Shown piece after piece: positions 23,512 to 26,106 of a DNA stretch of 61,704 nucleotides. Source of the stretch: Stylophora pistillata (taxonomy: Eukaryota); contig NW_019218141.1 in NCBI RefSeq assembly GCF_002571385.2, positions 253,871-315,574 on the forward strand, read 5' to 3'. Under the pieces are notes generated by a model. The model saw only the letters and a program-made list of their open reading frames with translations. It was not told the DNA's origin and did no database searches. The position numbers and the translations under genes were made by a program. The stretch's first letter is position 1. Each line of letters begins with the position of its first letter.

Positions 23512-24354
23512 TTATTCTGGCATTTCCTTGTCGTTGAAGTTTTCGTCTCCTATGCTGTCGTCTTCCACCCATGACCACAACATATCATTCAAATTGTCTA
23601 AAACACGAAGGCAATATGAAGATTAATGGTTTTTGCAATGATTCAGATACTCACCACTAACTGATTGAGATTCAACGATTATTGAAGTATTTGAACAAAA
23701 CAGTTTTTCCTTAGTGACCAGTCATTCTTTTTAGCCGGGGGGAGGGCAAAGTGGGAACGATTTTGGGGGGATCACATAGTCTGACTGCCATTGAGAGGGA
23801 ATCATAAGAATTCAATAGAGCCTTCTGGGATCAGCTAAATTTTCATTGCGACACAAGCAAAGTCCTCCAACTCCACCCGTTGCCTTTTCACGCACTTATG
23901 TCAAGCCTGGGGAAGTCTCTTTTAGCTTTACATCCACGTATAGGTGTTTACTGTGTCCCATTCTGCCCGCCCTACTCCCGTCCTCCCCCCCCCTACCAGT
24001 CGGTGGCAAAGTGGACACCTGGTATGTCACGTGGTATTTGAAAGACTCATTTGACCCCAGTCATTTTGTTTAACTTCTGTTAGATTTAATTTAATTTTCT
24101 TGTTCAATTTAACTGCAAATTGTTCTGTAAACAAGGTAAATTAAGAGGCACCAATACACGGTTGACTAATGGATGCTTGAGTTCGTACACAATTTACCTT
24201 TGAGATCACGCGTGTTTGCTGAACGAGCTTTCCAAAGCGAGGATCGTTTCTTGTGTGCAAGTGCCCCTCGTTTTCCGCCTGTACGAAGGAAGTAAGCCCT
24301 TGTAGAGATGACAAATGTGACCAAGAGGATAAATGCAACCAGTCGATGATTCAT
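23512..24354 (-). CDS. Putative neuropeptide precursor, 80 aa, 2 coding exons (24198-24354, 23512-23597)
   Basis: MNHRLVAFILLVTFVISTRA (signal peptide) - YFLRTG-G-KR - GALAH-KKR - SSLWKARSANTRDLK / DNLNDMLWSWVEDDSIGDENFNDKEMPE*. Phase-1 GT-AG intron 23598-24197; AATAAA-type signals downstream. Confidence 0.7.
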
Positions 24355-26106
24355 AGTACTCCTACCAAAATCAAACAAGGTGGAGGGAATTTCAATTGCG
24401 TGGAAAGTAGTAAACATGATTTCTTTAATGTAATCAGGAAAATGACAAAAGCGACTCAGTACTGACATATTTATATTAAAGTCTACGAAAATGCACCATT
24501 ACAACCAGTGAAGATCAATCAACCGGTGATGTGATTGAAACACTGTTTACATTCGCTAAAGAATATAACTTATTTGAGACAGTTTTTTATATCTTTTAGT
24601 CCGATGCAATTAAAAGGGATTATTTATTTTGTACCGTGTGTGTCCATTGTCAGTCGTGTATGCTCATGTATGGGTTTCAGAGTGCCTGTTTGCCTGTTAC
24701 GACTTGGAGGGGCAGGAAAGCACAAAAGCTTTTACGCAGGATTATGGCCGATATTCGGATATCTGAGTTAACTTCTACAGTCATGATGGCCCAAGCCATA
24801 AAAATTTCCCAATAAGATTATCCATATATAGAATTGATAAATTCCAGCCCAAGAAGTGAAAATGAAAGTTTACACATATAACGACTAAACAAAGCAATGG
24901 TCGTTTTTGTAACCGAGAAAAGCATATTTTACTATGCTTGCTTTCAGTGCAAAATGTTTCGGAACTTTGACTGAAAGAGGGGTGATTAAGTTTTTAATTC
25001 AACGCCGTTTTAACTTTAGATACTGATTGTCCTCACGCGCACACGGAGAAATTAAGAAATTGAAGTGCTTTTAACCACAAAGTGACAAGAAGATTTGTTC
25101 CCCGAAAGAGCTGGTATAGCGTGCAGGGAACCTGCTAAGAGAATGAAACTAAACCTTGCCCCCAGTAACGGATATCAGAAAAGATGCTAACATTCCCCTT
25201 GTAAATTTTGTGTTCTTAAGTTGGATGATGAGTTCTCAAGATCTTAGCTGGGGCTTTTGTTAACAATAGTCCTAACACGAAGTTATTCAAGTTTCTTCTG
25301 AGAGCAACCAGCAAGTTAAGCACATAAGTAGTTTGTAGCTTGTAAAATCGGAATGAATTTACCAAAACTAGTACTCAAATACTATAAACTCAAATAAGAT
25401 TTTTACCTTAGTTTAGGGCTGTGCCGGTTTATGATTTTACTAGCCAGTCTTCAAAAGCTTATTCGAGGCAAAATGAGGCTACACCACGCTTTTCTTAACT
25501 AGTAAACATTGATGCAGCTGCTTCACTTTAAAAGCAAACTAAATTGTTTTATCTTTCCTGTCTCTTCTATTCCAAGAGGAAATTAAGTTGTTTGCATAAA
25601 CAGGAGTTTTAACTGTATTGTAAACAGCGAAATTAGTTGTGCCGGAAGGGAAACTAAACCATTAGAGAGAATTTGAAATGAAGACTCATTTCCTCAACTA
25701 TCGATAATGCTGTTTGCGAATTGACAAATACACAACGAATTCTCACTGCAAATTGAAAATTCAGTTTATTATCGCGCTTACAACTGAGAAAAGTCCGCTT
25801 TGAAAAAATTGCATGGGTGTGACACGCATTTCCAAGCCATGTATTCTCAAAACGTGGTAGAAAAAAGTTGAAGCAACACAAGTCAAGCTTTTGTCCTTTT
25901 CCTGGTTCGGAATGGATGAAAGAATTATTCAGTTTGTTTCGTTGGTTTGACATAATTTTACATATATGCAAATATGCTTAATTGATGTGTTGAATCATCT
26001 TTGATGTTACCTCTTAGACACATTGGTGTTACCTTGGACATAAGCTAATAAAGATCAAAGAAAAACTGCCCGTCATCTTTGTTAACTATTGATACAACGT
26101 AATGGT

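What the first reader, a model, noticed from the sequence alone, without database searches (positions are those of the whole stretch)
23512..24475. Neuropeptide-precursor-like gene predicted to release YFLRTG-amide
Seen: a 20-aa signal peptide ending TRA, followed directly by YFLRTG-G-KR (amidation Gly plus dibasic site), a second KKR site, and an acidic tail on a second exon in correct phase. A TATAAA (24475-24470) lies 32 nt before a TCATTT initiator-like motif; an alternative acceptor is at 24363-24362. Known: anthozoan Antho-RNamide (from FLRN-G), RIamide and KAamide are short peptides whose N-terminal Phe becomes a phenyllactyl cap. Inference: a possibly undescribed FLRx-family relative starting with Tyr. 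This is the best candidate here for a new signalling molecule.
Basis: partly seen in the sequence, partly recalled or inferred. Interest (0 to 1): 0.7.

Follow-up and report, generated by a model that had tools for sequence, protein, structure and literature searches.

The report
Stony-coral YFLR-amide peptide precursor family
This spliced, transcribed stony-coral gene encodes a small protein whose signal peptide, aromatic-aromatic-Leu-Arg start and Gly-Lys-Arg site are shared with other stony corals; it is predicted to release a short amidated peptide that likely acts as a nerve-type signal, and we found no description of it in the papers searched.

Summary
The gene is real; the proposed promoter is not. 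RNA reads confirm the 24198/23597 splice in 6 of 6 runs. They also show a non-coding first exon (25479-25407) spliced to 24361, so the TATAAA and Inr lie in intron 1, with no read depth. The 80-aa product is identical to an NCBI hypothetical Stylophora pistillata protein.

Searches gave 16 family sequences; the named ones are Pocillopora, Oculina and Desmophyllum. 14 of 16 carry [YF][FY][LM]R-x2-4 then GKR directly after the signal: YFLRTG, YFLRSG, YFLRVP, YFLRLP, YFMRVLP, FFLRPH, YYLRLHGL and others. The peptide is conserved at its N-terminus and variable at its amidated end. dN/dS is about 0.32.

Best reading: a single-copy precursor that likely releases YFLRTG-amide as a GPCR ligand. It is not an Antho-RNamide: residue 1 is Tyr, the peptide is longer, and the site is GKR. 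Processing, cell type, cap and receptor are untested. No paper found. It is a new family of a known kind.

The parts
   Evidence: joint 24361/25407 in 4 of 4 runs; contigs X1 and X3; no ATG in the 80-nt 5' UTR
24440..24475 (-). TATAAA and Inr-like TCATTT: present but intronic, not the promoter of the observed transcript
   Evidence: depth 0 over 24408-24800 in 4 of 4 runs
24198..24361 (-). exon 2: 7 nt of UTR, ATG at 24354, codons 1-52 plus one base
24295..24354 (-). predicted signal peptide, residues 1-20, ending S-T-R-A
   Evidence: hydropathy; -3 = T/A and -1 = A/S in 16 of 16 family sequences; no SignalP available
24277..24294 (-). predicted mature peptide YFLRTG (residues 21-26)
   Evidence: family pattern [YF][FY][LM]R-x2-4
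24268..24276 (-). G-K-R: predicted amide donor plus dibasic convertase site (residues 27-29)
   Evidence: 14 of 16 family sequences
24244..24252 (-). KKR basic site (residues 35-37); K35-K36 invariant
   Evidence: alignment A3, 12 sequences
23598..24197 (-). intron 2 (600 nt, phase 1, GT..AG); same donor position in distant homologue L004
23267..23597 (-). exon 3: codons 53-80, stop 23514-23512, 3' UTR with AATAAA at 23350 and 23290; contigs end at 23267-23302
23560..23580 (-). conserved tail motif LW[SR]WxED (residues 59-65)
   Evidence: 6 of 6 full-length rows of A3

Best explanation
This is an expressed three-exon stony-coral gene for an 80-residue protein that is likely secreted and predicted to be cut into one short amidated peptide, YFLRTG-NH2, which likely signals through a G-protein-coupled receptor from nerve or neurosecretory cells. 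Shown: transcript, exons, coding constraint and family pattern. Inferred from known neuropeptide biochemistry: signal peptidase cuts after Ala20 and leaves Tyr21 as the N-terminus; a prohormone convertase cuts after Lys28-Arg29; a carboxypeptidase trims the basic pair; PAM turns Gly27 into the amide. Across the family the first four residues (aromatic-aromatic-Leu/Met-Arg) and the amidation site are kept, while the residues between them vary in sequence and number (6-8 residues in all). So the receptor most likely reads the N-terminal end, and the amide mainly protects the peptide. The rest of the precursor, a basic spacer and an acidic tail with LW[SR]WxED, likely serves as an associated peptide for sorting or packing.
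For: Splicing and strand in 6 of 6 runs. 16 family sequences; a third search with a 12-sequence profile added none. Named members come from three families of suborder Vacatina. GKR follows the peptide in 14 of 16, with nine different peptides before it; signal-peptidase -3/-1 residues are small in 16 of 16. Window vs L004 over 50 codons: pS 0.583, pN 0.284, dS 1.13, dN 0.36, Fisher p 0.0017. Of 5 coding variants checked from the reads, 3 are silent and none changes the peptide or GKR. Single-copy peptides directly after the signal are an established hexacoral layout (PMC7523074 sections 7 and 9). C-terminal x-KR cleavage and Gly amidation are confirmed by MS in Nematostella (PMC11087051 section 5). 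The genome holds copper monooxygenase (14 of 17 matches over cut-off) and convertase P-domain matches (36); the first family also covers dopamine-hydroxylase-type enzymes (recalled), so this is not a PAM identification. Lead only: the nearest named ESM Atlas clusters include GnRH, corazonin, spexin and AKH precursors, all under 0.9.
Against: No peptide, cell type or receptor has been observed. The residues next to the amide are the least conserved (modal residue 3 of 10 and 4 of 10), unlike most amidated neuropeptides (own knowledge). The basic spacer and tail are conserved nearly as well as the peptide. One Desmophyllum model (P0009) lacks the peptide and GKR yet keeps the rest, and P0051 has no GKR. 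A second signal cut after Ser17 fits the -3/-1 rule in 14 of 16. Homologues were found by whole-length similarity, so conservation of the signal and spacer is partly a selection effect.
Confidence: 0.62

Rival explanations
1. It is the diverged stony-coral counterpart of the sea-anemone Antho-RNamide/RIamide/KAamide genes, and its N-terminal Tyr (Phe in Oculina) is converted to a hydroxyphenyllactyl (phenyllactyl) cap. This is a special case of the best explanation.
For: Same layout: one peptide with an aromatic first residue directly after the signal. The anemone precursors read FLRNGR, FYRIGR and FFKAGR (supplement passages), and YFLR contains FLR. Oculina has Phe in position 1. This genome shows no intact FLRN, FYR[IV] or FFKA precursor by exact pattern: 1, 7 and 0 matches against 8, 10 and 0 controls, and none of the 6 in-frame ones had an open signal peptide upstream. 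A free Tyr N-terminus has no pyroGlu or Pro protection.
Against: Residue 1 is Tyr in 14 of 16 sequences. Peptides are 6-8 residues, not 4, and the site is GKR, not G-R. No anemone protein came up in four protein searches. PMC7523074 found no phenyllactyl-type precursors in seven Scleractinia, including S. pistillata. The capping enzyme is unknown, so it cannot be looked for.
Confidence: 0.15
2. The working part is the larger basic region or tail: a cationic antimicrobial or otherwise active peptide (residues 21-52) held neutral by an acidic C-terminal piece until it is cut.
For: Residues 21-52 have net charge +9 and 53-80 have -9. The spacer and LW[SR]WxED are conserved. P0009 keeps these while lacking the hexapeptide. 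Anionic C-terminal pro-pieces occur in some invertebrate antimicrobial precursors (recalled).
Against: The basic region is broken by conserved GKR and KK sites. It is only 31% hydrophobic, has no Cys, and is not amphipathic (best moment 0.46; 1729 of 2000 shuffles reach it). Its pN against L004 is higher (0.42) than that of peptide+GKR (0.23) (few codons, uncertain alignment).
Confidence: 0.12
3. The peptide is made and amidated as predicted, but by gland, mucus or stinging cells, as a non-neuronal secreted or outward-acting peptide.
For: Cell type is unknown. The peptide's C-terminal half varies between species more than is usual for a neuropeptide (the comparison is own knowledge).
Against: Three protein searches of the genome found one locus (lower bound), with no sign of the gene expansion common in venom families (own knowledge). 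It is under purifying selection and has no Cys.
Confidence: 0.1
4. The signal is cut after Ser17, so the product is the longer TRAYFLRTG-amide.
For: V-I-S fits the -3/-1 rule, as does the matching site in 14 of 16 sequences.
Against: It fails in P0004 (Phe at -3) and P0051 (Phe at -1), while the Ala20 site fits 16 of 16. It lies one residue after the hydrophobic core. A read variant Thr18Ala keeps the Ala20 site intact.
Confidence: 0.08

Closest known systems
Antho-RNamide, Antho-RIamide and Antho-KAamide precursors of sea anemones (PMC7523074 families 7-9)
   Same: Short precursor, one peptide directly after the signal, aromatic first residue, Arg/Lys near the start, Gly amide donor; the letters F-L-R are shared with FLRN.
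   Different: Here residue 1 is mostly Tyr, followed by a second aromatic residue, with Arg at position 4. The peptide is 6-8 residues and the site is GKR, where the passages seen show G-R. No sequence hit links them, and those families were not found in stony corals.
Antho-RWamide / LRWamide single-copy precursors (PMC7523074 family 10), present in stony corals
   Same: One amidated peptide directly after the signal; contains L-R; occurs in Scleractinia.
   Different: They are defined by a fixed C-terminal RWamide and mostly an N-terminal pyroGlu. This family has neither; its fixed part is N-terminal.
Bilaterian GnRH / corazonin / AKH / spexin-type precursors
   Same: Signal + single peptide + GKR + associated peptide; nearest named clusters by language-model features (0.84-0.87).
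   Different: No Pfam match to these families, scores under the 0.9 lead bar, no pyroGlu. Layout only; no homology is claimed.
NCBI hypothetical proteins PFX19483.1 (SpisGene16105), CAH3137400.1, KAJ7340450.1, KAL9957402.1
   Same: PFX19483.1 is identical to this protein; the others are family members.
   Different: All are annotated as hypothetical, unnamed or uncharacterised, with no peptide annotation.

Membership tests
Amidated neuropeptide precursors (general) | Spliced, expressed, constrained coding gene | tested here: met
Amidated neuropeptide precursors (general) | N-terminal signal peptide | tested here: met
   hydropathy and -3/-1 rule in 16 of 16; no SignalP run
Amidated neuropeptide precursors (general) | Conserved Gly + basic processing site after a short peptide | tested here: met
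   GKR in 14 of 16; a later G-R in 1; absent in 1
Amidated neuropeptide precursors (general) | Mature amidated peptide detected in tissue | not testable with these tools
   needs peptidomics
Amidated neuropeptide precursors (general) | Expression in neurons, with convertase and PAM | not testable with these tools
Amidated neuropeptide precursors (general) | Activates a receptor | not testable with these tools
   needs a GPCR screen
Phenyllactyl peptides (Antho-RN/RI/KAamide) | Single copy directly after the signal | tested here: met
Phenyllactyl peptides (Antho-RN/RI/KAamide) | N-terminal Phe as cap precursor | tested here: not met
   Tyr in the window gene and in 14 of 16 sequences; Phe in P0007 and P0050
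Phenyllactyl peptides (Antho-RN/RI/KAamide) | Tetrapeptide F-x-[RK]-x-amide | tested here: not met
   6-8 residues, Arg at position 4
Phenyllactyl peptides (Antho-RN/RI/KAamide) | Lactyl cap on the native peptide | not testable with these tools
   MS needed; enzyme unknown
Phenyllactyl peptides (Antho-RN/RI/KAamide) | Precursor homology or synteny with the anemone genes | tested here: inconclusive
   no anemone hit; such short precursors may lie beyond reach; no direct comparison or synteny test was run
LRWamide / Antho-RWamide | C-terminal RWamide | tested here: not met
   none of the nine peptides ends in RW
Cationic antimicrobial peptide precursors | Amphipathic or Cys-stabilised cationic mature region | tested here: not met
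   cationic (+9) but not amphipathic, no Cys

The most novel reading that the evidence does not exclude
Stony corals have their own branch of the aromatic-capped peptides thought to be confined to sea anemones and tube anemones. The conserved N-terminal Tyr is converted to a hydroxyphenyllactyl cap (phenyllactyl in Oculina), and the receptor reads a fixed N-terminal message while the amidated C-terminal part varies by lineage.
Probability: 0.15. Interest if true: 0.75.

Novelty: new member of a known kind. Interest (0 to 1): 0.5.

Why it matters
The main survey of hexacoral neuropeptides that included this species lists seven stony-coral families and no aromatic-start single-copy family (PMC7523074). 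This gene would add a family with nine natural peptide variants that can be synthesised and screened on orphan coral receptors at once. It also makes a standing claim testable, that phenyllactyl-type capping is absent from stony corals: the Oculina member has Phe, and the Stylophora member Tyr, directly after the signal. A peptide family fixed at its N-terminus and free at its amidated end would be unusual among cnidarian peptides.

Tried and rejected
TATA/Inr promoter: rejected by reads. The true promoter was not identified; a motif scan upstream of exon 1 gave only TTTAAA at 25532 and TCATTT at 25476. An upstream in-frame ATG extension, as in database forms P0004 and P0046, lies in intron 1 and has no read support here.

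Pfam: no family near cut-off for P0001, P0007, P0009 or P0010; the best were E 0.086-0.25. AlphaFold on the single sequence gave two helices with pTM 0.30, so no fold search was run. The ESM Atlas search with P0047 gave an unnamed arthropod cluster at 0.90 with 148 shared features, not followed.

Paralogues in the genome: none found with three protein queries; the alignment itself is not accepted as a query there. Pattern searches for anemone-type precursors were at or below chance; they cover only A/G at -1 and G-R sites and miss intron-split genes.

Three cluster members (P0020, P0026, P0029) proved unrelated and were left out of counts. The first dN/dS run read L004 out of frame and is void; one search replaces it. 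The column table holds 11 of the 12 rows of A3, because two rows shared a name. Earlier-findings look-ups by sequence and by words returned nothing.

Full report
Observation. On the minus strand, 24354-24198 joined to 23597-23512 gives a 243-nt CDS and an 80-aa protein. It has a basic start, a hydrophobic core at residues 5-16, S-T-R-A, then YFLRTG-G-KR, KKR at 35-37, and an acidic tail. A scan for that layout finds only this ORF in the window and 1 hit in 20 shuffles (pattern chosen after the fact). The protein is identical to NCBI hypothetical protein PFX19483.1 (SpisGene16105) of Stylophora pistillata. Three protein searches of the window's genome found only this locus (a lower bound).

Transcript. 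I laid 6 of the 24 runs listed. All six show the 600-nt intron 24197-23598: 19, 24 and 36 raw reads in X21, X22 and X24, and contigs in X1, X2 and X3. Mate orientation fits a minus-strand RNA. The four runs laid on the wider stretch all show a second joint, from a non-coding exon 25479-25407 to 24361. The 80-nt 5' UTR has no ATG. Contigs end at 23267-23302, near AATAAA at 23290.

Family. The last profile search added nothing (13 of 1083 candidates, all known). Named members are Stylophora, Pocillopora meandrina, Oculina patagonica and two Desmophyllum pertusum models. The three species looked up belong to three families of suborder Vacatina. Six of the 16 are close pocilloporid-type sequences. 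Peptides before GKR are YFLRTG, YFLRSG, YFLRVP, YFLRLP, YFMRVLP, FFLRPH, YYLRLHGL, YYLRLHGM and YYLRMHGL, in 14 of 16 sequences. P0051 reads YYGRLHFMRN-G-R, and P0009 lacks peptide and site. In the column table (11 of 12 rows of A3) the modal residue holds 9/11, 8/11, 8/10 and 10/10 at positions 21-24, 3/10 and 4/10 at 25-26, and 9/10 at each of G27, K28 and R29. K35-K36 are invariant, and L59, W60, W62, E64 and D65 hold in 6 of 6 full-length rows. Because G26 aligns with Pro or His in relatives, the amide donor is G27 and the product is YFLRTG-amide rather than YFLRT-amide. L004 keeps the same splice donor position. Against L004 over 50 codons, dS is 1.13 and dN 0.36 (pS against pN, Fisher p 0.0017). 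Absence from Acropora or anemones is not shown: relatives that keep only the peptide would escape these searches.

Mechanism. Shown: gene, transcript, constraint and conserved processing signals. Inferred: signal cleavage after Ala20 (-3/-1 rule met in 16 of 16, against 14 of 16 for the Ser17 site), convertase cleavage after KR, basic trimming and amidation. MS supports these rules in Nematostella (PMC11087051 section 5), and the enzyme families are in this genome. Two unreviewed earlier notes also place PHM and convertases here; I checked only the family presence. I infer a GPCR ligand whose N-terminal four residues carry the message. Neuronal origin rests on analogy with the single-copy hexacoral peptides. 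The basic-plus-acidic remainder (+9/-9) raises an antimicrobial rival, but the basic part is not amphipathic, has no Cys and is cut by conserved basic sites. P0009 is the main observation that the best reading does not explain: it may be a null allele, a gene-model error, or a sign that the remainder has a job of its own.

Comparison with known families. It works like the single-copy precursors of Antho-RNamide, -RIamide, -KAamide and -RWamide. It is not a member of the phenyllactyl families, since N-terminal Phe and tetrapeptide length are not met, nor of the RWamides. PMC7523074 (abstract, sections 7 and 9, passages) surveyed S. pistillata and P. damicornis, lists seven stony-coral families and found no phenyllactyl type. 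Its supplements (10 of 11 searchable) hold no FLRT or LRTG. The Nematostella synthetic peptide list of PMC11087051 (supplementary file 3, both parts) has no such peptide; its precursor file was unreadable. Exact patterns for anemone-type precursors in this genome were at chance level.

Novelty check. Full-text searches for FLRTG, YFLRTG, LRTGamide and FLRT(G)amide, for accessions and relatives' peptides and for coral neuropeptide topics returned nothing on this family; for most hits I saw listings only. I saw passages only of PMC8162421 (no 'neuropeptide' in the main text), PMC9525235, PMC13137736, PMC12440616, PMC11269664 and bioRxiv 10.1101/2024.10.30.621027. bioRxiv 10.64898/2026.10.05.756843 (passages) reports two neuron-enriched, heat-downregulated secreted S. 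pistillata proteins of conserved unknown coral families (g15744, g29914); its table is an image and I cannot tell whether either is this gene. The library lacks most subscription papers.

Verdict. A real, expressed, conserved, unannotated precursor that likely defines a new stony-coral amidated peptide family. The kind of system is well known; the family, and its N-terminal conservation, appear undescribed. Interest 0.5. The capped-peptide reading has probability about 0.15 and would merit 0.75.

Noticed in passing
P0009 (Desmophyllum KAJ7381696.1) against P0047 (KAJ7340450.1): Two near-identical models in one species; one lacks the peptide and GKR (ten residues replaced by one) but keeps signal, spacer and tail. 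It could be a null allele, a haplotig error or a gene-model artefact.
   Followed up: no
P0051 (unnamed Logan record): Reads YYGRLHFMRN-G-R where relatives read YYLRLHGM-GKR. It may be a short local frame change, yet it leaves a Gly-Arg site and an FMRN end resembling Antho-RNamide (FLRN). Single record, DNA not seen.
   Followed up: no
window 622-1581 (-): Open frame of 319 codons for a rhodopsin-family GPCR (7tm_1, E 1.3e-35), 22 kb from the peptide gene. Proximity is no evidence of pairing.
   Followed up: partly
window 22840-23064, and about 26100-26230, 31090-31240, 33400-33490: Short repeat elements that draw many reads from other loci on both strands; the first reads as a long inverted repeat just past the gene's 3' end.
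   Followed up: no
window 28628-33382 (+): Transcribed ankyrin-repeat gene, spliced across about 28963-32634.
   Followed up: partly
window 33974-34357 (-) and 36133 onwards (+): A GST C-terminal-domain exon and a head-to-head DDT/WHIM1 gene; the names AIMP2-like and BPTF-like are recalled, not tested.
   Followed up: partly
window 10427-11857 (+): LINE-type reverse transcriptase remnant, interrupted by a stop.
   Followed up: no
window 21092-21400 (-): Exon with a DPLSMFAA motif, recalled from VPS35L; no Pfam hit. It would be a synteny anchor for finding orthologues.
   Followed up: no
G000 contigs C88, C263, C1207, C321, C1073: 36 matches to the convertase P-domain, many clustered on a few contigs, suggesting a tandem expansion of P-domain genes.
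   Followed up: no
   Followed up: no
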